Source: Verrucomicrobiota bacterium
GTDB taxonomy: Bacteria > Verrucomicrobiota > Verrucomicrobiia > Opitutales > Cerasicoccaceae
Reading direction: 5' to 3'
Assembly: GCA_039818205.1 (NCBI GenBank)
Contig: JBCBUK010000010.1
Span: forward strand, 32,001 to 96,000
Length of the DNA stretch: 64,000 nt
Part shown: in pieces, positions 40,507 to 52,215 of the stretch
Position numbering within the stretch: position 1 is the stretch's first letter
Layout: each line of letters starts with the position of its first letter
The notes under the pieces: model-generated
The model's database searches: none
The model's input: the letters and a program-made list of their open reading frames with translations, nothing else
What the model was told of the DNA's origin: nothing
Translations under genes and position numbers: made by a program

Positions 40507-41457
40507 TTATCTGCCTGCCTTCAGGCGTCGCAGACCAATTAATATCCAGTTCAGCGCCTCCGCACTCGTGGATGCGTTGAATAGGCGTTGATTCTCCTCG
40601 AGGCTGAGTCGATTCGACTCGCAAAGGCGCTTGATTACTGCGTTTGATTCTGATCCTAGCCTTCCGGCTGCTCGATGGAAATTATCCCAAATGCTTTCCA
40701 AATCAAGTGGTCTAAGATCAGAAGCTGGATCACGTAGCTCTTCGACATGGGTTACCGGATCTTGATAGCACTTAGCTAAATCCCCGTTCAGCTGAAAGTT
40801 GATTTGGCGGGGAATGCCTTCCAGTCTGTCGATCGCATACTCGGTAACGCCTCCAAACAGGCGAGAAAGATAGAGCGGTTTTTTAAGAGCGAGGCTCAAT
40901 AGAATCTCTTCTAGAACGCCCGGGGTCCGTCCCCATGGTGCCGATTGCAGGTTTCCCTCTATCATGTCCCGTCCGCCAAAAGCGATTCGGGCTGTAGATT
41001 CTTCAGTCATCTCGCGACGCATTACGCTAAGCGATACCGCCCGCTGGTAGGTTCCAAGGGCACCATCAGGAAGGTTGGGCGCGCTGGTATCAACGAGGTT
41101 CAGCACGCCCCTAATTTGGCGTTCGCGCCATTCCTCCAAGGGGTTCGCTGACCCATGGTATCGAAAGTTGTGAATTAGAGGATTCTTTCGTGCGTCCTCG
41201 TGGGCAAGAACGGCATCGTGAGCTTCAGCCATCTCATAGAGGGCTAGCATTACGCCATCGGCCCGCCAGTCATGACCGAAACAAACGGCGGCACCATGTG
41301 AGATTAATGTACGAGCGATCTCGAGGACCACCTCGTTCACTTGGTCTGCGCCGTAGCTCCATTTCGAAGGCTCGAGTGGGTTCGAAATGCCAACCGATAC
41401 GATCAGTCCGCCGAGGAGCGGGTCGGTATCGAAGTTTGATATCTGATCGAGACTCAT
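40507..41457 (-). CDS. SLOG-superfamily protein (LD_cluster2/3-like)
   Basis: VGIS...EIARTLISHGAAVCFGHDWR, SLSVMRREMTEESTARIAFGG, GRTPGVLEE, KKPLYL..FGG, LSLEENQRLF: pattern of TIR-associated SLOG domains. Confidence 0.75.
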   Translation of the reverse strand: MSLDQISNFDTDPLLGGLIVSVGISNPLEPSKWSYGADQVNEVVLEIARTLISHGAAVCFGHDWRADGVMLALYEMAEAHDAVLAHEDARKNPLIHNFRYHGSANPLEEWRERQIRGVLNLVDTSAPNLPDGALGTYQRAVSLSVMRREMTEESTARIAFGGRDMIEGNLQSAPWGRTPGVLEEILLSLALKKPLYLSRLFGGVTEYAIDRLEGIPRQINFQLNGDLAKCYQDPVTHVEELRDPASDLRPLDLESIWDNFHRAAGRLGSESNAVIKRLCESNRLSLEENQRLFNASTSAEALNWILIGLRRLKAGR

Positions 41458-42683
41458 GGCTGCAGCGAGGTTTGCATCACAATTTTCTGTGGAGTCGTGA
41501 GTATAATCGATCCTTGAAACGTATCAATCAAGCCTTTGACTGCTGGTGCAAAGACTCCGGTCAGTGGGGGATCTTGGTGGAGGATCATGTACCGATTGCC
41601 GCTGCCTGGTTGTAGGTCGCGAATCGCATAGGCAATCTGGCTCATTGAAGGTGGGTAAGGAATTACACTGCTCTGATTGAACTTCAGATTTGTTTGTTGC
41701 TGGTAGGCGTGAAAGAACCGTTCAAGTGCTAATCGCTTGATGTTTTCTCGGAACGCCGAAAACAATGCTCGAAACAAGTTGCCATCAGCCAGAGATACAG
41801 TGGGTGCACCGTCGTGGGTTAATCGGTCGGCGCCGCGCTCAAGTTGTTGCCGTATCTCAACGTTAACAAGGGGAACGCCATTGTCTCGAGCCCAGACAAA
41901 CTCTTGCCGACACCATGGGCGGGTGTCGTAGCCGTCAGTCCGAAGAACAACTATTGTTGAATCAGAAATGCCGCGTTTAATCTCGCTTCTCCAATCGTTG
42001 ACGCCCGCAAGATCTTTTGCGTCATACCAGGATGAGAATTCGGTTTGCCGATCGATCAATTGCTGCATTGCCCAAGCCAAGGGAAGTCCATCTTGTTTGG
42101 CATGGCTAAGAAATATCTGCAGCTTTCGACTCCGTCCAGAAGGTCCAGCGATCCCATGAAGCAATAGTCGTCGGGCTTGGCAGAGAGTGTATAGAGCAAA
42201 CCAGACTGTCCGTTCCTCGTTCTCCCCCCAGATGCAACTTCCTTGGCCATTGCTTCGTTTTTCGTCGAGATCTTCGCAACGGATATGTCCATCAATGACA
42301 TTGATGTATCGGGAGTTCAAATCACTCCGGATTTGTTTACCCATGGTCACGATGATTAGACCGTTGTCGGGATCTTTGAGGTTGGCAGCTAGCGGGTCCA
42401 ACCAATCTCGCTTCATCTGTTTGTTCGAATCCTCAGTTACAAAAACAACGAACAGCGAATGCATGGCCTTGTCGAGCAACGCTTGCTGGTCACATAGCGA
42501 GAGTGCTTGTGAGAGCTCCTGAACAGGAACGTCAAGTTTTTCTCCGCTGCGGAGGTAGGCATTTTCGGCAGAACGGTTTCCCTGGATGACATCTTTGATG
42601 CCGTCGAGAAACGGAGCGGCAGACAGGTCGCCGCTATCGCGCACCAGGAAAATTTGTAACGGTGGCCGGGCCAGTGGGTTCAT
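41454..42683 (-). CDS. TIR-domain protein (divergent N-terminal alpha/beta domain plus active-type TIR)
   Basis: IFLSHAKQDG...WYDAKDL...DWRSEI...VVLRTDGYDTRPWCRQE (catalytic Glu). ATG 42683 lies 5 bp after the upstream stop; ATGA overlap with the SLOG gene. Confidence 0.85.
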   Translation of the reverse strand: MNPLARPPLQIFLVRDSGDLSAAPFLDGIKDVIQGNRSAENAYLRSGEKLDVPVQELSQALSLCDQQALLDKAMHSLFVVFVTEDSNKQMKRDWLDPLAANLKDPDNGLIIVTMGKQIRSDLNSRYINVIDGHIRCEDLDEKRSNGQGSCIWGENEERTVWFALYTLCQARRLLLHGIAGPSGRSRKLQIFLSHAKQDGLPLAWAMQQLIDRQTEFSSWYDAKDLAGVNDWRSEIKRGISDSTIVVLRTDGYDTRPWCRQEFVWARDNGVPLVNVEIRQQLERGADRLTHDGAPTVSLADGNLFRALFSAFRENIKRLALERFFHAYQQQTNLKFNQSSVIPYPPSMSQIAYAIRDLQPGSGNRYMILHQDPPLTGVFAPAVKGLIDTFQGSIILTTPQKIVMQTSLQP

Positions 42684-42688
42684 TAGAC

Positions 42689-43843
42689 TTATTTTGCTTC
42701 GTCGATTGAGGTTCCACCAGTTGCCTCTCGGGCAATCTTCTCGAATGCTTTCGAATGCTTGTCGAGGCATGTTGCCAGATCAGTTAGTGCTGTTGGCGCC
42801 GCATTGACGAGACGTCCATGGATTTCTTCGAGTTCATCGATAGCCAATAGTCCGGCTTCGTCGGCGTCAGTAGCCCCGGGCGTTGGTAACAAGCCTCCGA
42901 TTCGCCAAGTGATGTTTCGAATGAGTTCCTGAAGACGTTTTGTGATTGGATCAAAGATCAGGGTATTTGTCTGCCAGCTTGAGCATTGGGCTGAGAACCC
43001 GGCCATTTCAACCGAGAGCAACCAACAGGTCTGGCGATGCTCAAGAGAAGGAGCACCTTTTATGGCAGCATCCCAGCGTTCGAATTCGCCTAGATCTTCT
43101 TCTGAAATATCTGGCTGGGTTCCAGCGAGACTCGCTGATTCGGAAACCATGTTTTCGTAGCCCGGAATGTTTGCGGCATTACCGAGGTTCTTTGCATATT
43201 CAGCTGCGATTGCGCGCATCTTCTCGAGATCCCTGCGGCATATGGCATTGAGCGGCCAGTCGGCTTCACCGAGATTTGTGCCCTCCCAATCCTGCAATCT
43301 CGGGTGCCAACGACTGAGATAGGGGCGAACGGCGTGGTTCAGCATTCGATGACAGATCGATTCCAAGGTAATTGCGGTTTTCTGCGTGTTCGACGGAGTC
43401 GGAGGCATTTCCTTGAGCTCATCACGAACAATTTGGAAAAACTGATACAGAGAATTAAGCGCTTCGCGGATGTTCCCATCTTCATTGTTAAGGGGTTGGA
43501 TAACCGTCCGGGTTGTCATCTCATGGAAAATCCGCCGAGCAGCCGCCCGCTGCGGATTGCCGAGTTGAACCTTGGTGGCACCAAGAATCGGGATATTCAT
43601 CTCAACTTCGCTGACACCAAGAGGCGAGAGCATTTGTCGATAACCCGCTATCAATGGGCCTGCGATAAACGGTAAACTGCCCGCCAACGCGCCTAGAATT
43701 AGTATCATAAATCCGGTACTAACCCACCATTCTGTTTCGGATAGGTCGCCAGACGCAGTGTCGATTACCTTTGTGATTGCGATGAAGAGGGCGACGCCGC
43801 CTCCCAGGGCAAATCCAACAAGAAAACGTTGTATCTTTGACAT
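42689..43843 (-). CDS. two-TM protein with an uncharacterised, internally duplicated helical domain
   Basis: 384 aa; two N-terminal hydrophobic helices, then EMTTR..QPL...NIREALNSLY...LNHAVRPYLSRWHPRL; first gene of the left operon. Confidence 0.75.
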   Translation of the reverse strand: MSKIQRFLVGFALGGGVALFIAITKVIDTASGDLSETEWWVSTGFMILILGALAGSLPFIAGPLIAGYRQMLSPLGVSEVEMNIPILGATKVQLGNPQRAAARRIFHEMTTRTVIQPLNNEDGNIREALNSLYQFFQIVRDELKEMPPTPSNTQKTAITLESICHRMLNHAVRPYLSRWHPRLQDWEGTNLGEADWPLNAICRRDLEKMRAIAAEYAKNLGNAANIPGYENMVSESASLAGTQPDISEEDLGEFERWDAAIKGAPSLEHRQTCWLLSVEMAGFSAQCSSWQTNTLIFDPITKRLQELIRNITWRIGGLLPTPGATDADEAGLLAIDELEEIHGRLVNAAPTALTDLATCLDKHSKAFEKIAREATGGTSIDEAK

Positions 43844-44244
43844 CTTAACAAATCTTGGTACCTAGAAGGTGCAATAATGTCACGATCAAAGGTGTTACAA
43901 TAATAAAACGCTAGGACCTAATTCCTAACTATTTGAATTATTAAGCTCAGGTAATTGACATCGATTTGCCTCTGGAAAACATTTAAGTGACTTCGTATTT
44001 CTTGGTAAGAATTGGTCTAATTTTTGCTAAATTATCCCTTACCTCCAAATGCGTGGTCTAGGTGCCGTTGGATGATTTCTAATTTTTAAGGTTAGGCCTT
44101 CTCTGGGCATTTTTCACCAGAATGGGTTTGCTGAGAGCGCCTAGTTTTATCGATCCGGCAAAAATTACCCAAGCCAATCGGAAAAACTTGAATATTTCTT
44201 TACAAATTATACTTACTATCAATTAACCTACTAATACTCCTGCG

Positions 44245-44412
44245 ATGATCTTGGACTCCAGCCATTGTTTAATGCTGATGCCGCCACCACGACTCCCGTT
44301 GGAGTACGGACTCTGTTGGGTGTCGGTTATCCTTGTTCTGGTGGCGTTCATAATGCGCCCGGTGGAATTTCTGGCATCTTTAGAAGCGGAGGACGGGTTA
44401 TCTTTTCGTTAG
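44245..44412 (+). CDS. possible 55-aa single-TM peptide (not in track)
   Basis: MILDSSHCLMLMPPPRLPLEYGLCWVSVILVLVAFIMRPVEFLASLEAEDGLSFR*, bracketed by a 10-bp inverted repeat. Confidence 0.3.
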   Translation: MILDSSHCLMLMPPPRLPLEYGLCWVSVILVLVAFIMRPVEFLASLEAEDGLSFR

Positions 44413-44455
44413 GAGTATTAAAGGAACAGCCTTCACATATTGATCGAATCTAGCA

Positions 44456-45958
44456 ATGTCCGGGGACACTCCATATAGCGGTGAATCATTCAGGAATGAC
44501 GTTTTCGTTAGTTATTCGCACGGCAAAGAATTGGCTGAAAGCGGCCAATCTCATTTGAAACTGTGGTCGGATGTTCTTATTTCCAATTTAAAGGAATACA
44601 TCAGCGTGCCGCTTAGAAGTGCTGATGTTAAGATATGGAATGATGGTAAACTTCCTCCGAATTCGCCAATAACTGATACGATAAAAGAGGCGGTTGAAGG
44701 CTCAGCGATCCTCGTGGTAATCCTGACTGATTCTTACTTGCGCTCGGATTGGTGTAAGGCTGAGCGGGAATGGTTTGCATCAGAGGTAAGTCGTCGAGGA
44801 GGTGGTTCTGGTTTAGAAAGCGTGTTTGTCATTCGAGCCACAAATATCGAGCATGAGAAGTGGCCTGATTTTTTAAAAGACGAATCAGGCGAGCCGTCGC
44901 TTGGTATCAACTTTTGCGACCGGAAATCAAACTTTCCTTATGGATTTCCCGATCCGAATAAGGCCAAGGATCAGGGAGACTTTTATGCGTCACTGTCCAA
45001 TTTAGGTCCCAGTGTTGCCCGCGCGCTAGAGAAAGTAAAAAGCGAGTTTGAGAAAGCCCGCTCGGCCGCGAAACCAGCTGTCGCCAATAGGCCAATCGTA
45101 CGTACTGTCTATGTCGCGCCGGGTACTGAGGATGTCCGAGGCGCATTGAAGTCGATTCGTGAAAAGTTGACTCAGCGCGGCATCAAGGTAGCGCCTTCTG
45201 AAATGGTCGCGATTGATCAGATTCACGGACAGGTGACCAATGAAGTATTTGGGCAGGCTCGGGCATTTGTGCAATGCTTCGGTTATATGGCTGCGCGGAC
45301 ACCAGAAATGATCAGCCGTGTAGAGCGTCTACACAAGCTTGCTTGTGAACAGAATCTTCCTCGCTTTCTCTGGCGTGATTCGAAGATTGATATTGATCTG
45401 CTCAGTTACGATCTCGAGTACAAAAACTTTATCCAGCGATTAGTTCCGGACATTCAAATGGACATAGATGTTCTGGTAGAAGAGCTTTGCAGTAAACTAC
45501 AAGAAATTCAGCTCCCCGAAGATGGGGGTTTCTCCTCGACGGCTTATATGGAGATACCTTCCGAGGTTTATCATGAGTTTGATCGTTGGCGTAAAGATAT
45601 CCAGGTTCCGGATTGCGTTGTCTTTCCTCTTACACCTCCTCAGAAAGGCGGCATGAGTGAGATCTCCAAAGAGCGGCGCGCCAAGCAGTTGATTTATGAG
45701 GAGTGTAATGTGATCTTGCACCTCTACTGTGTTAAAGGCCAGTTGAAGTGGATGAGGGATTCGATCATAAATTCGGAAAAAGTAAAGACCAGGATTGACT
45801 GCCCTCAGAGTGCGCACCCGACAAATCTTATCGTCGATTATACGGATGAGACCGATACTGAATTGGTCGCTCAAACAATAGGCGTTCCGTTTTGTCGCCG
45901 AAGGGAAGGGGAGGATAGTGCTGCCCTTTTGTCCGCAATCAAGAAAGCGATTCGATGA
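44456..45958 (+). CDS. TIR-domain protein with additional divergent alpha/beta domains
   Basis: DVFVSYSH...IWND...AILVVILTDSYLRSDWCKAE (catalytic Glu); second unit begins RTVYVAPGTEDVR; ATGA overlap with the STAND gene. Confidence 0.88.
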   Translation: MSGDTPYSGESFRNDVFVSYSHGKELAESGQSHLKLWSDVLISNLKEYISVPLRSADVKIWNDGKLPPNSPITDTIKEAVEGSAILVVILTDSYLRSDWCKAEREWFASEVSRRGGGSGLESVFVIRATNIEHEKWPDFLKDESGEPSLGINFCDRKSNFPYGFPDPNKAKDQGDFYASLSNLGPSVARALEKVKSEFEKARSAAKPAVANRPIVRTVYVAPGTEDVRGALKSIREKLTQRGIKVAPSEMVAIDQIHGQVTNEVFGQARAFVQCFGYMAARTPEMISRVERLHKLACEQNLPRFLWRDSKIDIDLLSYDLEYKNFIQRLVPDIQMDIDVLVEELCSKLQEIQLPEDGGFSSTAYMEIPSEVYHEFDRWRKDIQVPDCVVFPLTPPQKGGMSEISKERRAKQLIYEECNVILHLYCVKGQLKWMRDSIINSEKVKTRIDCPQSAHPTNLIVDYTDETDTELVAQTIGVPFCRRREGEDSAALLSAIKKAIR

Positions 45959-48900
45959 GTGGTGCGAGCAGCAAGTCTGATGGCGTGCAAGCGTCCGCTG
46001 TAATCCGCCGGAATCCGTATCCAGGGTTGCGACCGTTTCAAGTTGACGAGTGGTCGATATTTTTTGGCCGCGAGCGTATGATTGATGACGTTATCGAGCG
46101 CATGGGTGAATCTCAATATGTGGTCATTCATGGGGCCTCTGGCAGTGGTAAGTCTTCTCTTATTCGTGCTGGCGTGATTGCCCAGTTGCAGCGGGAGCAC
46201 CAGAGCCGAGGTCTTGATTGGCGACCAGCGGTGATGATGCCTGGCAGTTCGCCGATGTGGCATTTTGCCACAGCACTCTTAACCGCGCTTTCTTCTGACG
46301 ATCATGATGAACCTTGGAAGATCGCGCAGACGCGAGTTCGCCTCAGTATGGGTTCTGATGGAGTTGCGGACCTTCTACAGGAAGCGGGCTTTGGTCCGGA
46401 CCAGCGCTTGTTCATTCTCGTTGATCAGTTTGAGGAAATTTTTCGATTCGCCGATGAAGGTGGCGTTGAAGAGGCGACGGAGTTTATTGAGCTTTTGGTT
46501 GACCTTCACCGACATCCTTTGTCCGGGGTCTATCTGGCAATGACCATGCGCTCAGACCATATTGGCGAGTGTTCCCGTTTCTCTGGTCTCTCGGAAGTGG
46601 TCAACAACTGCCAATATTTGGTTCCACCAATGGAGGAACGCGAGTTGATCGAGGCCATATGCCGACCAGCATCAATCGAGTGTGGTCACGTTTCGGAAGG
46701 GCTGGCCCTAAGGCTGATCAAAGACACGCGGCATACTCCGGATCAACTGCCATTGATCCAACACGCACTGTGCTACATGTGGGCTTTGGAAGTGGATGAA
46801 GCGCCAGATCAGAACCCGACTCTTAACCTTGACGACTATGCAAGAGATCAAATCGGCTCAGTTACACATGCTCTTTCGAACCACGCCGATGAGGCATTGA
46901 AGGAGTTGGCTTCAGATGGTCGTCCAACCTTGGACGCGGCGGAGCATGTTTTTCGAGCATTGACGCAGGTAGATAGTTCTGGGCGAACCATTCGGCGGCG
47001 ACTGGGAAGAAAGAAGCTACTTGGTGAAGTTAGTTGTTCTGAGGCAGTTCTAGATCGAGTCATCAAGGTTTTTGCGGCATCCAATCGTACGTTTCTGTTT
47101 CAGGAAAAAGAAAATCCGGAGATGGATCCGAAGGTCGATATTTCCCATGAATCCTTAATTCGCCACTGGGAAAAACTAGAGGACGATTCTATTGATCCCA
47201 AGACTGGACGACCTGGCGGATGGGTGAGTCGGGAAGCTTATGATGGCGCTGTTTGGCACGGGCTGGTTGCGACGGTTACCAGTGCCCCTCGACCATCGGA
47301 AGCCCAGCTTCCAAAGATTGTTTATGAGCGTCGGCAGGAATGGTGGCATTCGCGAAATCCTAATGCCAAATGGGCGCAGCGCCATGGTGGTCATTTCGAT
47401 GAAGTTAAGGAACTACTCAGCCGAAGCCGAAAGAAAATCGAAGATGATGAGCGCCGCCAGCGAGAGACGGAGGAAGCCAAAGAAGCTGCACGCCGGAAAG
47501 CCAAGTTTTTGGCCTGGATCGCGTCGGTTTTCGCAGTAATTGCGATTGGGATGGCGATTTTTGCCGCTAAAAAGAATTTTCAATTGCGGGAGTCGCTTGT
47601 GAACGCTGAGCGCCTCGTAGTAAGTGAGCGAGCGGCGTTGGACGAAGCGAATAGAGCCAAGAATGCCGCGTATGCATCAAAGGACAAAGCGATTAAATCT
47701 GAGGAGATGGCGATCAATGCGTTGCGGAGGCAATGGCAGTTGACATTGGACAAAGCAGACGCGTTTAAGGACGATCCAGTGGTCCGTTCGCTAATCGCGC
47801 TTGAGTTCCTTCCTGACGCCAGTGTCGAGGACGATGATCGTAAGAATTATCCTAGTATTCCTAGAGTAGAACAGGAGTTGAGAGAGGCGCTGAGCGCCGA
47901 AGCTCGGGTAGCGGTGGTCTACGAGGACCAGGAATTTGCTCAGACGATCGAGTCATTGGATTTCAATTATGATGGCAGTCAGATCGCGATGGTGTCCGAT
48001 CGTGGAGAAACCGTGCGAGTTATTGATGCATCGTCCAAGGATACCATCTCGAAAATTGAGGGAGAGTTCCGCGAGTTCGAACAGGTGAAATTTGGGCCGT
48101 TTGGATCCCGCATTGCTGTTACTCGCGATTTGTCTGGGAAATGGAGTATATTCGATGCGAAATCCGGAGTTGAGGAGCAAATGCTAGATTTTGGCCCCGA
48201 TATCGATGCTCTTGCCTGGTCGCCTGATGGTGGCCAAATCGTGACCGGGTCCATCGATGGATCGCTCCGCATTTGGGATGTTGGTAAAGACGTTCCGACA
48301 TTGGATGTTAATGTTTCCAGTATTCCAATTAGTTGGGTCGAGTTTGATTCGACGGGATCCAAGATCGTCGGTGGCCTCTATGACGGAGAATTGTTTTTTT
48401 GGGATATCGAAAAATCTGAGCGACCACAGATAATTGTGTCTGGATCAAGTCGGTTAGTGGCCGGAGCCTTGCTCCCGGATGGAAATTCTATAGTAAGGTT
48501 GTCCGATAAGGGTCAGGTGGATTTGGTCGACCTGGCATCTTCCGAGGTGAAATTGGTTACCAAAATCGATTCGGTTGGTCGCTCACTTGCGGTTGCTCCC
48601 TTTGGGCGTTGGATTGCAATTGGCTGCTCGGATGGTCGGGTTAAGATCGTCGATCTTGATAATACGAATCCAGTCGAAACGACCGATACTCTAGGGCGAG
48701 AAGTTGATGCACTTTCATGGTCTGTGAAGGGAAATTCGATGGCAGCAGGGACCTACGATGGTTCGCTTGCGATAATAAGTTTTTATACTCCAGAAGAGGA
48801 AGTGAAGGGAAAGAACCTGGAGAGCATGACAACCCAAGAACTTGTTGAGTTCGCCCAGGCGTCTCTTCCTTATTGCTTTAGCGAGAATGAACGAAAGCGA

Positions 48901-51900
48901 CTAGGGCTTAGTGAAGCGGTTCCTGATTGGTGCCGTGAAGAGCGTGCCTACCCGTTTGATGCATCCGGTCGAATGGCTCGTGCATTGGGGTTGCTCCCGG
49001 GTTTCCCAAAAAAATCTCACGATCAATTCAATGATGCGCTATTCCTTGCCGGCGATGGACAAAGCCTGGACATGATTCATGCGATTAAGAAAGGGGCCAT
49101 GCTGAGGGCCCTGACTCAGCTTTCGGATGGAGCGAAAAGCCCCTCAGAATTTAACTCGAGAAAGAAGCGCCTTGATGAATTCATTCAGCTGGCAACAGAA
49201 TTGGAGTTAGCCCCGGAATCTCAACTTAAGGACGCTGAGGTCGCTTTTCTGGTTGAATCGTCTCGGAATGTCATGCGGCATGACCGAACGAACGAACCTT
49301 TGAGTAGTAAGTGGTTGGCAGATGCGCGGGCAATTGATCATTCGGGCTCCTTAGAGGCGCGTTGGCGCTTAACGCTTGATGATGCCCGAAATTTAGCGAT
49401 AGAGGAGGAGACGGACGAAGACGCCGAAGCTGGGGTGGATCCGATCGTAGAAATTCTCATTGCTCTTGAGTTCCTACCAGCTGAAAATGCAGACATTGAT
49501 TCAGTGCCCGAGATTGTAGAATCTCTCCAAAGATCACTGCTCAACCTAAGGAACCAGCCAAGCATTGAGCGAAACATTGTCCACTCATTTGATGATGAAA
49601 TTGAAATGCTCGATATTGACGCCGATGGTCGAGCTGTTGTGCATTTTCAAGACCATGATGTCTTGTATGGGAAATCGATTGATAGTGGCCAAAGCGGGGA
49701 ATACTTTAAGCTATCAGTTGGGAATTTGAGTGCGATAGAGTTTAGTCCGAATAATTCACGGCTGCTCGTCTCTTCTTATGATGGCTTTATCGAAGTGCTG
49801 GATCCGAATAGTGGCGATCGACAGATAGATCCGATTGAAGCCCATGCGAAGGTCGTTGATGCTGTTTGGCTTTCTGACACGGAGATCGTCTACGCAACTG
49901 ATGAGGCCGTTTTCATCCGAAACCTTGATGACGTTAACCGTGTCGAAAAGCTTGAGGTTTTTGAAGAGCCAGTTTTCTTAAACGTACACCCGGAATCGAA
50001 AAAGTTACTAGTTGCTTCATCTGGCATGGCAACTGTCTGGGAATTGGATGGCGCCCCGTTTTACTCAAATTTTTCCCCTGAAGGATACTTAGGCTTTCTA
50101 CATGCTGAGTGGGCTGATGATGGAAATTTCCTTATTACGGTCGACGATGGTGACAGATTTGACATATGGCAGAAGCCAGACAACAAGCGCAGAGACTCGG
50201 GCTATGTATTAAGAGAAGTTCCGTTTGAACAGAGATTTTGGGAAGTCAACGCGATCGATGTGTCACGGGATGGACGCTGGTTGGTTATTGGAAGCGAAGA
50301 TTATTATCTCGATTTCTATGATCTGAAAGAACAACGGTTTGTCGCTGAGGCGAAAGTGGATGACGCTATAGTTTTTTTAGAATGGTCAGACTCCGGTGAA
50401 AGTGTGAACTGTTCTACCAGCGATGGAAGTATCATTCGATTTGACTTCTTCACGGTTGGGCAAAACTACCAACATCAGATTGAAGAACTTGTCGCTGGTC
50501 AAAACGTAGCGTCGGATCGCTCAGGCAAGAAAGGTCCGGGTTCAAGCCTTGTCGATCTGGCACGTAATGTCGTTCCTTACTGTTTCGGAGAGTGGGACCG
50601 AGAAAGCTTGCTTCTCGATGAGGAAATTCCTGATTGGTGTATTACTTGGAAGAAGCCACCGTTTGACTTTAGGGGTAGAGTGGATAGGGCATCCGAACTT
50701 ATGAATGGAGGAGAATCGGAAGTGGCCGATGCCTTCCGAATTTTCAAGGAATTGGAGATGTCACATCCCGAATCATTTGAAGCGATTCAGAAAGAGCGAC
50801 TCGCCTCTGTGCAGAGTCGATTGTCACAGTTGTCCGGGGATGCAGATAGCTATATTCGTTTCCAAGAGAAACTTTCAAAATTGGAGGGTTTCACTGAGCA
50901 GGTTAATGCCGTGCATCCTGAAATGGAGCTCGATTTTGATTACTATCGCTTCGAGCTCGCCGAAGGTGCGGCAAAGCAGTTACTGGAATACGATCAGATC
51001 GAGGGGGCTCGACAAGCCTTTGCAATAGCACTTGGCTATCGGCCGGAGCTAAAGGATCGGATCGTGTTATCTCACGCCGAAGCGGCCCTATCTCGAGGTG
51101 AGCTTGGCGTTGCGTTGTTACTCGCGCTTGAGGTTGCTGATTCAAATCCGGATGCGAAAGAATTCCTGGCGCGTTACCTATCATTGGACGGGCCGACTCA
51201 GCGTTGGCCTATCTCAGAATCTCCAATCATTGGTATCAGCGTTGATCCTGAGAATGGAGCTTACCTTGCGTCTGGTGGTTCTGAGGTTTATCGTTGGAAC
51301 CCAGAGAGTGAAGATTCCGAATTGTTACTAGGGGACGTTTCTGACGCTGGTCGAATCGCGTTGAGCCCCGATGGTAGTCGATTTATCGTGGGGAGTAGCC
51401 TCCTTCTTCCGCGTATCTGGGATTTCCCATCGGGTGATACCTCGGCGGTGCTGGAAACAAACGCTGGAGATAGTATCGGCGCTGCTTGGTCAAGTAATGG
51501 TGAACTCATTGCGCTGTCGGACGGTTTTGATGGCGGAACGTATATCTTTAACTCGGAGTCGGGAATTGCCGAAGCAACCCTCAAGGGGGCGAATACGAGC
51601 GACTACGGTGTTTGCTTTTCGCCAGTTGATGAGAAACTCGTTTTGACCGGAGGTAGCGGGTTGCTTCAGATTTGGGACATTTCAAGTGCTAGTCCGATAT
51701 TCACGTTAGAAGTCGACGAAAACATAGAGATTTACGACGTGGACTGGTCCGTTGATGGTGATCGAATTGTATATTGCGGTGAAAATGGCACTGCCGGTCT
51801 TCTAATTAGAGACGAAAACGGCAATTGGAAGAACACCCACGAGTTCGATCATAACTCTGAAGTCGTTTTTTCAGTAGCTTTTGATTCGACTGGCGAGCTT

Positions 51901-52215
51901 TTCGCTACTGGTAGTGAGAATGGAATTATGGTTTGGGATACAACGAGCGGAGATTTGATTCGGCGATTGGTCGATACTCAGCTTGATCCGGATGATGAAG
52001 AAGCGGTTCCGATTGTCGTAAAATGGGCGTCGGATGGTAACATCTATGCGGGAATGGCCAGTGGAAATCTGTTAGTGTTTAATGGGCACGGACTGGATTC
52101 TACTGATGAGGCAGAAAGTGTTGTTGAACGTGCTCGCGATCGTGTTGAACGGGAACTGACAGAAGAGGAGCGTTGGCTCTACAACCTTACCGAAAAACAG
52201 CCAGGTAAGTCTTGA
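45955..52215 (+). CDS. nSTAND1-type NTPase-TM-triple WD40 beta-propeller protein (2086 aa)
   Basis: NPYPGLRPF...FFGRE, Walker A GASGSGKSS, Walker B ILVDQFEE, QLPLIQHAL, ISHESLIRHW, TM FLAWIASVFAVIAIGMAIFAA, many WD-like repeats (e.g. LAWSPDGGQIVTGSIDGSLRIWD). Confidence 0.92.
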   Translation: MSGASSKSDGVQASAVIRRNPYPGLRPFQVDEWSIFFGRERMIDDVIERMGESQYVVIHGASGSGKSSLIRAGVIAQLQREHQSRGLDWRPAVMMPGSSPMWHFATALLTALSSDDHDEPWKIAQTRVRLSMGSDGVADLLQEAGFGPDQRLFILVDQFEEIFRFADEGGVEEATEFIELLVDLHRHPLSGVYLAMTMRSDHIGECSRFSGLSEVVNNCQYLVPPMEERELIEAICRPASIECGHVSEGLALRLIKDTRHTPDQLPLIQHALCYMWALEVDEAPDQNPTLNLDDYARDQIGSVTHALSNHADEALKELASDGRPTLDAAEHVFRALTQVDSSGRTIRRRLGRKKLLGEVSCSEAVLDRVIKVFAASNRTFLFQEKENPEMDPKVDISHESLIRHWEKLEDDSIDPKTGRPGGWVSREAYDGAVWHGLVATVTSAPRPSEAQLPKIVYERRQEWWHSRNPNAKWAQRHGGHFDEVKELLSRSRKKIEDDERRQRETEEAKEAARRKAKFLAWIASVFAVIAIGMAIFAAKKNFQLRESLVNAERLVVSERAALDEANRAKNAAYASKDKAIKSEEMAINALRRQWQLTLDKADAFKDDPVVRSLIALEFLPDASVEDDDRKNYPSIPRVEQELREALSAEARVAVVYEDQEFAQTIESLDFNYDGSQIAMVSDRGETVRVIDASSKDTISKIEGEFREFEQVKFGPFGSRIAVTRDLSGKWSIFDAKSGVEEQMLDFGPDIDALAWSPDGGQIVTGSIDGSLRIWDVGKDVPTLDVNVSSIPISWVEFDSTGSKIVGGLYDGELFFWDIEKSERPQIIVSGSSRLVAGALLPDGNSIVRLSDKGQVDLVDLASSEVKLVTKIDSVGRSLAVAPFGRWIAIGCSDGRVKIVDLDNTNPVETTDTLGREVDALSWSVKGNSMAAGTYDGSLAIISFYTPEEEVKGKNLESMTTQELVEFAQASLPYCFSENERKRLGLSEAVPDWCREERAYPFDASGRMARALGLLPGFPKKSHDQFNDALFLAGDGQSLDMIHAIKKGAMLRALTQLSDGAKSPSEFNSRKKRLDEFIQLATELELAPESQLKDAEVAFLVESSRNVMRHDRTNEPLSSKWLADARAIDHSGSLEARWRLTLDDARNLAIEEETDEDAEAGVDPIVEILIALEFLPAENADIDSVPEIVESLQRSLLNLRNQPSIERNIVHSFDDEIEMLDIDADGRAVVHFQDHDVLYGKSIDSGQSGEYFKLSVGNLSAIEFSPNNSRLLVSSYDGFIEVLDPNSGDRQIDPIEAHAKVVDAVWLSDTEIVYATDEAVFIRNLDDVNRVEKLEVFEEPVFLNVHPESKKLLVASSGMATVWELDGAPFYSNFSPEGYLGFLHAEWADDGNFLITVDDGDRFDIWQKPDNKRRDSGYVLREVPFEQRFWEVNAIDVSRDGRWLVIGSEDYYLDFYDLKEQRFVAEAKVDDAIVFLEWSDSGESVNCSTSDGSIIRFDFFTVGQNYQHQIEELVAGQNVASDRSGKKGPGSSLVDLARNVVPYCFGEWDRESLLLDEEIPDWCITWKKPPFDFRGRVDRASELMNGGESEVADAFRIFKELEMSHPESFEAIQKERLASVQSRLSQLSGDADSYIRFQEKLSKLEGFTEQVNAVHPEMELDFDYYRFELAEGAAKQLLEYDQIEGARQAFAIALGYRPELKDRIVLSHAEAALSRGELGVALLLALEVADSNPDAKEFLARYLSLDGPTQRWPISESPIIGISVDPENGAYLASGGSEVYRWNPESEDSELLLGDVSDAGRIALSPDGSRFIVGSSLLLPRIWDFPSGDTSAVLETNAGDSIGAAWSSNGELIALSDGFDGGTYIFNSESGIAEATLKGANTSDYGVCFSPVDEKLVLTGGSGLLQIWDISSASPIFTLEVDENIEIYDVDWSVDGDRIVYCGENGTAGLLIRDENGNWKNTHEFDHNSEVVFSVAFDSTGELFATGSENGIMVWDTTSGDLIRRLVDTQLDPDDEEAVPIVVKWASDGNIYAGMASGNLLVFNGHGLDSTDEAESVVERARDRVERELTEEERWLYNLTEKQPGKS

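What the first reader, a model, noticed from the sequence alone, without database searches (positions are those of the whole stretch)
40507..52215. Candidate new immune/conflict locus: divergent 2TM-TIR-SLOG and TIR-nSTAND1(WD40x3) operons
Seen: five non-housekeeping genes in two tightly coupled operons (ATGA overlaps at 41454-41457 and 45955-45958, a 5-bp gap at 42684-42688) diverge from a ~610-bp AT-rich spacer. They encode two TIR domains that both keep the catalytic Glu (WCRQE, WCKAE), a stand-alone SLOG, a 2TM protein and a giant STAND NTPase. Established: TIR domains cleave NAD+ and make ADPR-derived signals; in Thoeris a SLOG domain binds that signal; STAND NTPases (Avs, NLR-like) oligomerise on ligand recognition; TM effectors are common in such systems. 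Inference: a STAND sensor activates the TIR(s), SLOG reads or modulates the nucleotide signal, and the 2TM protein is the effector. I do not recognise this combination as a named system. It has neither the SIR2-SLOG nor the TM-Macro effector of Thoeris types I/II.
Basis: partly seen in the sequence, partly recalled or inferred. Interest (0 to 1): 0.9.

Follow-up and report, generated by a model that had tools for sequence, protein, structure and literature searches.

The report
Thoeris-like TIR locus with new effector domain
Five neighbouring genes in a marine bacterium look like an untested antiviral alarm system, in which a membrane-spanning sensor and NAD-cleaving TIR enzymes probably signal to a membrane protein that carries a conserved but unnamed domain.

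Summary
In detail: all five ORFs, both ATGA overlaps, the 5-bp gap and the 612-bp AT-rich spacer are real, and every domain call holds.

- **Left arm.** The "stand-alone SLOG" and its upstream TIR gene are the two halves of a protein that is usually fused (N-domain, TIR, SLOG cluster2, about 670-740 aa).
- **2TM protein.** It carries an unnamed domain, which I call P3. A profile finds 995 clusters, and no Pfam model covers P3 in 149 members tested. P3 genes lie within 5 kb of TIR genes in 8 of 11 loci. P3 is fused to 2TM segments, patatin, Tle1-like lipase, calcineurin-like phosphoesterase, TIR, or TIR-NTPase.
- **Right arm.** This is a split TIR-nSTAND1. Relatives carry the TIR fused to the NTPase. 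The NTPase is followed by a predicted transmembrane helix, so the three WD40 propellers are probably outside the cytoplasm.

No model of Thoeris types I, II, III or VII is met. This exact five-gene set was found nowhere else. A Phycisphaerales locus does join TIR-TM-WD40, 2TM-P3 and TIR-SLOG, and 8 of 10 SLOG cluster2 genes have extra TIR genes nearby.

Verdict: a Thoeris-like TIR signalling system, a new variant of a known kind. Whether the two arms work together is plausible but unproven. Earlier scan notes describe similar membrane TIR receptor and SLOG loci on other DNA, but none holds P3.

The parts
40507..41457 (-). P0001, 316 aa: SLOG cluster2 domain (aa 19-219, window 40801-41403) plus a conserved C-terminal helical tail. 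It is the split-off C-terminal half of a protein that is usually fused (N-domain, TIR, SLOG).
   Evidence: PF18163 scores 80.9 bits against a cut-off of 25.3. The protein is collinear with the C-terminal halves of fused proteins. Invariant residues in A5 are N97, M146, R147, R157, G162, P179, G180, E183, E184, G202 and G203.
41454..42683 (-). P0002, 409 aa from M30 (the longest ORF reaches 42770): an N-terminal alpha/beta domain, a TIR domain (window about 41853-42116) and a linker. Its stop overlaps the SLOG start as ATGA.
   Evidence: TIR_2 scores 38 bits. A4 has invariant F191, S193, H194, K196, D221, D224, Y252, R255, C258 and E261 in 409-aa numbering, which includes the catalytic Glu of WCRQE. 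The N- and C-terminal parts match the fused L017 protein.
42689..43843 (-). P0003, 384 aa: two TM helices (aa 9-27 and 47-65), a beta-hairpin (78-94), the helical P3 domain (aa about 76-238, window 43130-43618), and a degenerate second copy (about 250-384).
   Evidence: TM prediction. AF2 model with pLDDT 68. A one-copy P3 profile matches aa 10-238 at E 2.8e-62, and the second copy leaves only a trace. The family has 995 clusters. No Pfam, PADLOC or NCBIfam hit.
43844..44455 (.). Divergent 612-bp spacer, GC 0.405. It holds an unverified 55-aa ORF with one hydrophobic helix at 44245-44412(+).
   Evidence: No Rfam match and no repeats. Promoter-like hits are not above the shuffled expectation.
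44456..45958 (+). P0004, 500 aa: a TIR domain (aa about 12-135, window 44489-44860) followed by two further alpha/beta domains (about 217-350 and 363-499) of unknown family.
   Evidence: TIR_2 at 37 bits and TIR at 26.3 bits. A3 has invariant S97, W99, C100 and E103. The AF2 secondary structure shows three alpha/beta units, pLDDT 62. Only 2 full-length homologues were found.
45955..52215 (+). P0005, 2086 aa: nSTAND1 NTPase (aa 21-410, window 46015-47184; Walker A GASGSGKS with K66; Walker B-like LFILVDQFEE), a predicted TM helix (aa 518-536, window 47506-47562), then three WD40 propeller regions at about aa 661-968, 1215-1495 and 1750-2045.
   Evidence: PF20703 scores 272.8 bits and the propeller models match. 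The TM helix has hydropathy 2.49. Three of four other nSTAND1 proteins also have a TM helix after the NTPase. The start overlaps the P0004 stop as ATGA.

Best explanation
The locus is a Thoeris-like conflict system, probably antiviral, that signals with NAD-derived molecules made by TIR domains. It is built from two modules.

**Module R (P0004 + P0005).** This is a split TIR-nSTAND1 receptor. The NTPase sits in the cytoplasm. A single TM helix places the three WD40 propellers outside the cytoplasm, where they would sense an envelope-level cue. NTP-dependent oligomerisation would then bring together and activate the separately encoded TIR protein.

**Module L (P0003 + P0002 + P0001).** This is a conserved trio. 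P0002 and P0001 together are a split N-domain/TIR/SLOG cluster2 protein, which I read as a ThsA-like receiver. In that reading the SLOG binds a TIR-made nucleotide and switches on its own TIR, either as an NADase or as the maker of a second signal. P0003 is the membrane executor, and its P3 domain receives the signal and drives its 2TM segment to damage the membrane.

**What is shown:** gene structure, domain identities, conservation of catalytic and ligand-type residues, the split-versus-fused relationships, and the recurrent P3-TIR and SLOG-TIR neighbourhoods.

**What is inferred:** every biochemical step, the topology of P0005, that P3 binds a small molecule, and that module R feeds module L. 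I give that last link about even odds.
For: 1. **Split and fused forms, left arm.** P0002's N-domain and linker and P0001's tail match the fused 739-aa protein of L017 in order. A4 and A5 align both halves with 6 relatives each, four fused and two split.
2. **SLOG cluster2 goes with TIR.** Of 10 SLOG cluster2 genes examined (window, L002, L006, L017, L021, L034, L030, L031, L032, L033), 9 are fused to or adjacent to a TIR. Eight have further TIR-family genes in the DNA held, up to 10 kb away; the exceptions are L006 and L033. This mirrors ThsA-SLOG with ThsB. In the window the only further TIR nearby is P0004. The genome has 4 TIR_2 genes, 1 SLOG cluster2, 1 P3 and 1 nSTAND1.
3. **P3 goes with TIR.** Of 11 P3 loci with usable flanks, 8 have a TIR gene within 5 kb. 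These include minimal pairs: ThsB_TIR + P3 in L019, and P3 + DUF4062-TIR in L018.
4. **P3 is swapped between effector modules.** It is found with 2TM (105 of 153 members have a TM segment before P3), patatin (L017, L021), Tle1-like lipase (L017), Metallophos-4TM with or without SLOG cluster2 (P0125, P0142, P0129), TIR (P0089) and TIR-NTPase-2TM (P0091). Known second-messenger sensor domains are distributed in the same way.
5. **P3 keeps polar and aromatic residues.** S131 and R140 are invariant. E108, R112, N169, R173, W179, H180, E193, W196 and R203 are conserved in at least 90% of 70 sequences.
6. **Right arm.** Other nSTAND1 proteins are TIR-nSTAND1-TPR (L053), TIR-nSTAND1-TM-HEAT (L054) and DUF4062-nSTAND1-TM (L052). 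P0005 lacks any N-terminal effector. PMC8195603 (passages read) describes nSTAND1 with N-terminal effectors such as TIR.
7. **Links between the arms.** In L002, TIR-TM-WD40 lies 28 bp upstream of 2TM-P3, which is followed by TIR-SLOG. In L005, TIR-TM-WD40 is divergent from P3. In L021, the order is TIR, SLOG, P3-patatin, TIR-AAA_16. P0091 is a single fused protein.
8. **Context.** The locus is not found in 40 relatives, its GC is lower than that of the flanks, and synteny breaks after lpd in 4 same-genus genomes.
Against: - No experiment exists and no expression data were found.
- The exact five-gene combination was found in no other locus.
- nSTAND1 genes occur without P3 or SLOG cluster2 nearby (L052-L055). 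In G118 they lie on other contigs than its P3/SLOG island.
- P3 with TIR-SLOG occurs without any STAND or WD40 gene (L006, L017). The arms may therefore be separate systems.
- Several P3 proteins are soluble and stand alone, with no effector domain (L006, L018, L019, L005). That fits poorly with "sensor domain plus effector".
- P3 also occurs in one polypeptide with SLOG cluster2 (P0129, P0142), which would put two sensors in one protein.
- The P3 fold search gave only generic helical-bundle matches.
- HEAT repeats follow the TM helix in L054, which is unusual for a periplasmic domain, so the topology is uncertain.
- The comparative set is small (11 P3 loci, 10 SLOG genes) and was not sampled blind.
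Confidence: 0.55

Rival explanations
1. The arms are two independent systems that happen to be neighbours. The right arm is a self-contained TIR-STAND abortive-infection receptor whose TIR simply depletes NAD+. The left arm is a self-contained Thoeris-like trio that senses infection through its own TIR protein.
For: nSTAND1 proteins with fused TIR stand without P3 or SLOG cluster2 nearby (L052-L055). P3 + TIR + SLOG stands without a STAND gene in L006, and TIR-SLOG with P3-lipases does so in L017. The exact pair was not found again. Defence genes are known to cluster. bioRxiv 10.64898/2025.12.03.692087 (passages read) treats TIRs in Avs-type proteins as NAD-depleting effectors.
Against: Eight of 10 SLOG cluster2 genes have extra TIR genes nearby. 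TIR-TM-WD40 or TIR-NTPase genes abut P3 genes in L002, L005 and L021. P0091 fuses TIR, NTPase, 2TM and P3. Both arms are single-copy in this genome and share one divergent spacer.
Confidence: 0.35
2. P3 is not a small-molecule sensor. It is either a protein-protein adaptor or oligomerisation module, or it is itself a membrane-inserting helical bundle with a beta-hairpin. P0003, P0002 and P0001 would form one membrane-bound complex.
For: The three genes are tightly coupled (5-bp gap and ATGA overlap). Stand-alone soluble P3 proteins exist. P3 occurs in the same polypeptide as TIR or SLOG cluster2. The fold is a beta-hairpin plus a helical bundle.
Against: No second P3 copy sits on P0001, P0002, P0004 or P0005, as the effector-associated-domain pattern would require. 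The conserved Arg, Trp, His and Asn residues suit a ligand pocket better than a plain adaptor. Matches to pore-forming toxins lie within the noise expected for helical bundles.
Confidence: 0.2
3. The locus is not antiviral. It would be a signalling or programmed-death circuit that answers an extracellular or envelope cue, such as kin recognition, predators or stress, through the outward-facing WD40 receptor.
For: The predicted TM helix lies between the NTPase and the propellers, and the same layout is seen in TIR-TM-WD40 neighbours. No phage or mobile-element genes lie in the window flanks. PMC8195603 links such systems to multicellular habits (passages read).
Against: Relatives of the parts lie in evident defence islands. 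L019 sits with a DUF1156 methylase and an SNF2 helicase. L030 sits next to a Gabija-like OLD/UvrD pair. L018 lies by an integrase. The patchy distribution and lower GC suit a defence gene.
Confidence: 0.12

Closest known systems
Type I Thoeris (ThsB TIR + ThsA SIR2-SLOG)
   Same: A TIR enzyme is paired with a protein that joins a SLOG domain to an NAD-consuming domain. Extra TIR genes are often present in the locus. The logic is signal followed by effector activation.
   Different: The SLOG belongs to the cluster2 family and is joined to a TIR, not to SIR2. That protein is split into two genes here. A third, membrane component (2TM-P3) is present. PADLOC ThsB models hit only weakly, at 21.5 bits.
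Thoeris types II and VII (TIR + TM-Macro; TIR + SLATT) as described in bioRxiv 10.64898/2025.12.03.692087
   Same: A TIR gene lies next to a small membrane protein whose cytoplasmic domain is thought to bind the TIR product and trigger membrane damage. Minimal TIR + P3 pairs (L019) have the same two-gene shape.
   Different: The cytoplasmic domain is neither Macro nor SLATT by sequence: no Pfam hit even at E<=10. The same P3 domain also sits on lipases and phosphoesterases.
Type III Thoeris (several TIR proteins + small SLOG protein ThcA)
   Same: Arrays of TIR genes occur together with a SLOG-domain protein. L032 has 4 TIR-family genes plus TIR-SLOG cluster2.
   Different: The ThcA model NF058525 finds nothing in this genome. 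ThcB4 scores 27.7 bits against a cut-off of 220. None of the 19 related proteins scanned reaches a type III cut-off.
TIR-STAND conflict systems centred on nSTAND1 (Kaur et al. 2021, PMC8195603)
   Same: The NTPase family is the same (272.8 bits), the C-terminal part is built of superstructure-forming repeats, and a TIR serves as the associated effector.
   Different: The TIR is a separate, ATGA-coupled gene with two extra alpha/beta domains. A TM helix after the NTPase implies a receptor-like topology. The gene sits beside a TIR-SLOG/P3 module.
Toll-like receptors (functional analogy only)
   Same: The layout is a repeat-domain sensor, one TM helix and a cytoplasmic TIR signalling part.
   Different: The orientation is opposite, with the cytoplasmic part N-terminal. 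The sensor is WD40, not LRR. The TIR is enzymatic. An NTPase is interposed. No homology beyond the TIR is implied.

Membership tests
Thoeris type I | Effector ThsA with a SIR2 domain fused to a SLOG (STALD-type) domain | tested here: not met
   No SIR2 hit on any of the five proteins. The SLOG belongs to PF18163 cluster2 and is partnered with a TIR.
Thoeris type I | ThsB-type TIR protein | tested here: inconclusive
   PADLOC ThsB models hit P0002 at 21.5 bits and P0004 at 14-15 bits only. Pfam TIR_2 is above its cut-off for both.
Thoeris type II | TM effector with a Macro domain | tested here: not met
   P0003 has two TM helices but no Macro hit at E<=10.
Thoeris type III | ThcA SLOG protein (NCBIfam NF058525) | tested here: not met
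   No match in the whole genome at E<=0.01. P0001 has no NCBIfam hit at E<=0.1.
Thoeris type III | ThcB4-type TIR protein (NF058526, cut-off 220 bits) | tested here: not met
   P0002 scores 27.7 bits and P0004 11.9 bits.
Thoeris type VII | SLATT-domain membrane effector | tested here: inconclusive
   No SLATT family hit by sequence at E<=10. The fold comparison is uninformative, giving only generic helical matches.
Thoeris (general) | Phage-triggered TIR product that activates the effector and protects the cell | not testable with these tools
   This needs phage challenge and LC-MS.
nSTAND1 STAND NTPases | nSTAND1 NTPase module with Walker A and Walker B | tested here: met
   PF20703 at 272.8 bits against 27.1, aa 21-410. 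GASGSGKS and LFILVDQFEE are read in the sequence.
nSTAND1 STAND NTPases | N-terminal effector domain on the same polypeptide | tested here: not met
   The NTPase starts at aa 21. The TIR is the separate upstream gene. Two of the 4 relatives examined carry a fused TIR and one a fused DUF4062.
nSTAND1 STAND NTPases | C-terminal superstructure-forming repeats | tested here: met
   WD40 propeller models match aa 661-968, 1430-1487 and 1820-2044.
SLOG cluster2 (PF18163) | Match above the curated cut-off, with the glycine-rich and PGxxEE motifs kept | tested here: met
   80.9 bits against 25.3. G162, P179, G180, E183, E184, G202 and G203 are invariant in A5.
Enzymatic TIR domains | Conserved catalytic glutamate | tested here: met
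   E261 (409-aa numbering) is invariant in 7 of 7. E103 of P0004 is invariant in 11 of 11. Activity itself was not tested.

The most novel reading that the evidence does not exclude
This is an undescribed TIR immune pathway with two tiers. A receptor built like an inverted Toll-like receptor has WD40 propellers outside the cell, one TM helix, and an nSTAND1 NTPase plus a detachable TIR inside. It detects an event at the envelope and makes a first NAD-derived messenger. A TIR-SLOG cluster2 pair reads that messenger and relays or amplifies it. The result is read by P3, a new and widespread second-messenger sensor domain that arms membrane, lipase and phosphoesterase effectors.
Probability: 0.25. 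Interest if true: 0.85.

Novelty: new variant of a known kind. Interest (0 to 1): 0.62.

Why it matters
- **P3.** If P3 is a receiver of TIR-made signals, it adds a new sensor domain to the short list of SLOG/STALD, Macro, SLATT and a few others. It would give about a thousand uncharacterised protein clusters a testable role. It would also point to a TIR product that may not be one of the known cADPR isomers.
- **TIR-SLOG cluster2.** This protein is a candidate for a TIR that is itself switched on by a nucleotide, that is, a relay step in TIR signalling.
- **Sensor layout.** An NTPase or TIR inside the cell and WD40 propellers outside would mean that some bacterial NLR-like and TIR sensors watch the envelope rather than the cytoplasm. 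That is a direct structural parallel to animal Toll-like receptors and can be tested with simple topology reporters.

Tried and rejected
- **Fold of P3.** Foldseek against the PDB gave no match at E<=0.001. VIA-align wide gave only four-helix-bundle matches, best Z 12.6, within the noise stated for helical models. The ESM Atlas gave only unnamed clusters, mostly actinobacterial.
- **Complex prediction.** P0002 + P0001 + P3 (aa 76-245) returned "no answer", score 0.00. This is neither for nor against binding.
- **Expression.** No RNA holder was listed. One marine-metagenome DNA run holds the stretch and may be its source.
- **Wider loci.** The metagenome scan gave one weak 2.2-kb locus and the viral contigs gave none. 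The actinobacterial class sample gave 1 of 301, the centre genome itself.
- **P0004 relatives.**
  - No fused longer form was found; the tool itself rates this as weak evidence.
  - The C-terminal part was found in 1 of 401 phylum genomes, the window's own.
  - One weak hit was found in 351 Planctomycetota genomes.
  - hhalign of the P0004 family against SLOG cluster2 gave probability 0.45%, so its extra domains are not SLOG cluster2.
- **Island borders.** The kinase on the right lies on other contigs than sucB in relatives. No simple insertion site could be drawn.
- **Spacer.** No Rfam family, no repeats, and promoter and terminator counts at the shuffle level.
- **Literature.**
  - Burroughs et al. 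2015 (NAR), which defined the SLOG clusters, is not held. What I say of it is recalled.
  - Burroughs & Aravind 2020 (J Bacteriol) is not held.
  - van den Berg et al. 2024 was seen only as cited by others.
  - A search for 'TPALS' led nowhere useful.
  - The supplements of bioRxiv 10.64898/2025.12.03.692087 were not seen; I did not request them, because the task notes state that bioRxiv supplements are closed. One of that paper's unnamed TM-effector classes may therefore already contain P3.
- **In print.** I found no name for P3 in searches.

Full report
**1. What is in the sequence**

The two ATGA overlaps and the 5-bp gap are real. The gap fixes the likely start of the TIR gene at 42683, giving 409 aa.

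The divergent spacer is 612 bp with GC 0.405. The locus as a whole has GC 0.494, against 0.550 for the left flank and 0.522 for the right flank.

The left flank is the sucA-sucB-lpd operon and the right flank is a hybrid histidine kinase. No integrase, transposase or phage gene lies in the window flanks that I scanned.

In four same-genus genomes sucA-sucB-lpd is conserved at 76-84% identity. None of the window's right-flank genes follows within about 14 kb in any of them. The kinase orthologues lie on other contigs. The locus therefore sits at a point where synteny breaks. I could not draw insertion borders.

**2. Domain calls**

- Pfam gives SLOG cluster2 for P0001, TIR_2 for P0002 and P0004, and nSTAND1 plus WD40 propellers for P0005. 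It gives nothing for P0003, even at E<=10.
- PADLOC gives only weak ThsB-like TIR hits.
- NCBIfam gives only Thoeris type III ThcB4, at 27.7 bits against a cut-off of 220. The ThcA model finds nothing in the genome.
- The locus therefore matches no model of a described system in these libraries.

**3. The left arm is a conserved module, and its TIR and SLOG genes are one split protein**

SLOG cluster2 was present in 6 of 401 genomes sampled from the phylum. I examined ten SLOG cluster2 genes: the window, L002, L006, L017, L021, L034, L030, L031, L032 and L033.

- Nine are fused to or adjacent to a TIR.
- Most are single proteins of 668-856 aa with the order N-domain, TIR, SLOG. One (L034) has an added CHAT domain.
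- L033 is only a partial match and has no TIR.

P0002's N-domain and linker and P0001's tail match the fused L017 protein in order. Both halves align along their length with four fused and two split relatives (A4 and A5).

Eight of the ten SLOG genes have additional TIR-family genes in the DNA held around them.

**4. The 2TM protein carries an unnamed, widespread domain**

Word-based search found only 3 homologues of P0003. A profile of these four sequences found 995 representative clusters at E<=1e-3, of which 392 are at E<=1e-10 and 66 at E<=1e-30.

I scanned 149 of the best 150 hits against Pfam. No model covers the shared region. I call this region P3.

- **Shape.** In the AF2 model (pLDDT 68) P3 is a beta-hairpin followed by a helical bundle. 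It spans aa about 76-238 of P0003.
- **Copies.** P0003 has one good copy and a degenerate second one. Relatives have one to four copies.
- **Conserved residues.** Seventy sequences keep S131 and R140 without exception. E108, R112, N169, R173, W179, H180, E193, W196 and R203 are kept in at least 90% of them.
- **TM segments.** Of 153 members, 105 have a predicted TM segment before P3.
- **Other partners.**
  - TIR-P3 (P0089).
  - TIR, P-loop NTPase, 2TM and P3 (P0091).
  - P3-Metallophos-4TM (P0125).
  - The same with a C-terminal SLOG cluster2 (P0142, P0129).
  - Tle1-like lipase-P3 and P3-patatin (L017, L021).
- **Stand-alone forms.** Some P3 proteins are soluble and have no partner domain: L006, L018, L019 and L005.
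- **Rarity.** P3 was found in 6 of 401 phylum genomes, in 0 of 40 relatives, and in only the centre genome of 301 sampled from an actinobacterial class.

**5. P3 neighbourhoods**

Eleven loci had usable flanks: the window, L002, L004, L005, L006, L016, L017, L018, L019, L020 and L021. L003 (3.5 kb) and L007 (2.2 kb) were too short and were left out.

Eight of the eleven have a TIR-family gene within 5 kb of P3:

| Locus | Genes near P3 |
|---|---|
| Window | TIR (P0002) adjacent; TIR (P0004) across the spacer |
| L002 | ThsB_TIR, Nmad2 and 2TM-P3; further on, TIR-TM-WD40, 2TM-P3 and TIR-SLOG |
| L005 | TIR-TM-WD40, divergent from P3 |
| L006 | P3, TIR, SLOG: the window's order, in a myxobacterial MAG |
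| L017 | TIR, Tle1-P3, TIR-SLOG, P3-patatin |
| L018 | P3, DUF4062-TIR |
| L019 | ThsB_TIR, P3, inside a methylase/helicase island |
| L021 | TIR, SLOG, P3-patatin, TIR-AAA_16 |

Of the other three, L004 has only a sub-threshold TIR 5.2 kb away, beside a ParA-TPR protein. L016 and L020 have none.

The module P3 + TIR + SLOG cluster2 is therefore found in Pseudomonadota, Planctomycetota and Myxococcota.

**6. The right arm is a split TIR-nSTAND1 with a receptor-like layout**

nSTAND1 occurred in 5 of 85 class genomes. The four other proteins I examined are:

- TIR-nSTAND1-TPR (L053);
- TIR-nSTAND1-TM-HEAT (L054);
- DUF4062-nSTAND1-TM plus 1413 aa of unknown sequence (L052);
- an nSTAND1-TM protein with an unassigned N-terminus (L055).

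P0005 begins with the NTPase at aa 21 and is ATGA-coupled to P0004. P0004 is a TIR followed by two further alpha/beta domains. It has only two full-length homologues, at 35-37% identity, and NCBI names one of them as coming from a Planctomycetes MAG.

P0005 has one strong hydrophobic helix at aa 518-536. Three of the four relatives have a comparable helix after the NTPase.

The TIR-WD40 proteins that abut P3 genes in L002 and L005 also have a helix between the TIR and the propellers. So does a third one beside an nSTAND1 gene in L053.

If these helices span the membrane, the propellers face outward. A Cys-bearing motif (PYCF...PDWC) recurs after the first two propellers of P0005. The topology is a prediction from hydropathy only.

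**7. Are the arms one system?**

For:
- SLOG cluster2 proteins nearly always keep company with further TIR genes, and here P0004 is the only candidate.
- L002 has the analogous set in one direction.
- In L005 a TIR-TM-WD40 gene lies divergent from a P3 gene, echoing the window's divergent layout.
- L021 places a TIR-NTPase next to P3-patatin.
- P0091 fuses the two kinds of module.
- Each part is single-copy in this genome, apart from two unrelated TIR genes elsewhere.

Against:
- The exact pair was not found again.
- nSTAND1 genes and P3/TIR-SLOG modules each occur alone.
- My sample is small and was not drawn blind.

I put the link at about even odds.

**8. Mechanism proposed**

See Best explanation. 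All the biochemistry is inferred by analogy with Thoeris. In type I Thoeris a SLOG binds 3'cADPR and switches on SIR2. In types II and VII, membrane effectors are switched on by His-ADPR and cADPR respectively (bioRxiv 10.64898/2025.12.03.692087; I read the abstract, passages, section 8 and the reference list). The STAND part rests on descriptions in PMC8195603 and bioRxiv 10.64898/2026.10.19.760177 (passages read).

**9. Comparison with the literature and novelty**

- The parts are catalogued. nSTAND1 is described in PMC8195603. TIR-SLOG antiviral systems are mentioned in PMC9503650 (passages read), citing Burroughs 2015, which I could not read.
- Type III Thoeris is described by others as several TIRs plus a distinct SLOG. 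Its NCBIfam models are not met here.
- I found no name for P3 in my searches.
- The supplement listing about 29 candidate Thoeris effector classes was not available to me, and P3 may be among its unnamed TM effectors.
- Earlier notes of this scan describe Thoeris-like membrane TIR receptors and SLOG membrane proteins in other genomes. A sequence look-up found no P3 look-alike among them.

I rate the locus a new variant of a known kind.

Noticed in passing
window 44245-44412 (+): A 55-aa ORF with one hydrophobic helix lies in the GC-richer end of the spacer, just upstream of the TIR gene P0004. No homologue was sought, so it may be chance.
   Followed up: no
window 47506-47562 and about 48870-48935, 50575-50645 (P0005 aa 518-536, 972-993, 1541-1562): P0005 has a single TM helix after the NTPase. 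A Cys-bearing motif (PYCF...PDWC, cysteines 19 residues apart) is repeated after propellers 1 and 2. The motif may form disulfides if this part lies outside the cytoplasm.
   Followed up: partly
L002:39-1848; L016:9799-12857; L030:1467-5918: Genes for Nmad2, the 5-hmdU DNA kinase helical domain and a thymidylate-synthase-like protein are usually seen in phage DNA hypermodification. Here they recur in bacterial genomes next to ThsB-type TIR genes and/or small P3 proteins. In L002 the order is ThsB_TIR, Nmad2, 2TM-P3.
   Followed up: no
L021 and L034 (G118:C5:42400-75999): This is a roughly 30-kb island dense in TIR genes. It holds TIR, SLOG cluster2, P3-patatin, TIR-AAA_16, DUF4062, lipase_3, TIR-SLOG cluster2-CHAT (1196 aa), a WD40 protein, TIR, a MoxR-like AAA protein and another TIR.
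   Followed up: partly
L032:5790-15621 (G175:C15): An array of four TIR-family genes is followed by N-domain-TIR-SLOG cluster2, a HET-domain protein, a NUDIX hydrolase and a DUF3427 helicase. It resembles the published description of type III Thoeris, but no NCBIfam type III cut-off is reached.
   Followed up: partly
L053:4576-11838 (G118:C35): A TIR-nSTAND1-TPR gene lies divergent from a TIR-TM-WD40 gene. This is another pairing of a STAND protein with a membrane TIR-propeller receptor.
   Followed up: no
L030:14663-18234: An OLD-family ATPase/TOPRIM gene followed by a UvrD-like helicase (a Gabija-like pair) lies next to the TIR-SLOG cluster2 genes. This marks the region as a defence island.
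   Followed up: no
window 40506 / L042-L045: Synteny with four same-genus genomes ends right after lpd. What follows lpd in those genomes was not annotated, so this could be a variable hot spot.
   Followed up: partly
P0156 (212 aa): One P3 family representative carries a glutamine synthetase C-terminal fragment before P3. This is probably a gene-call or assembly artefact.
   Followed up: no
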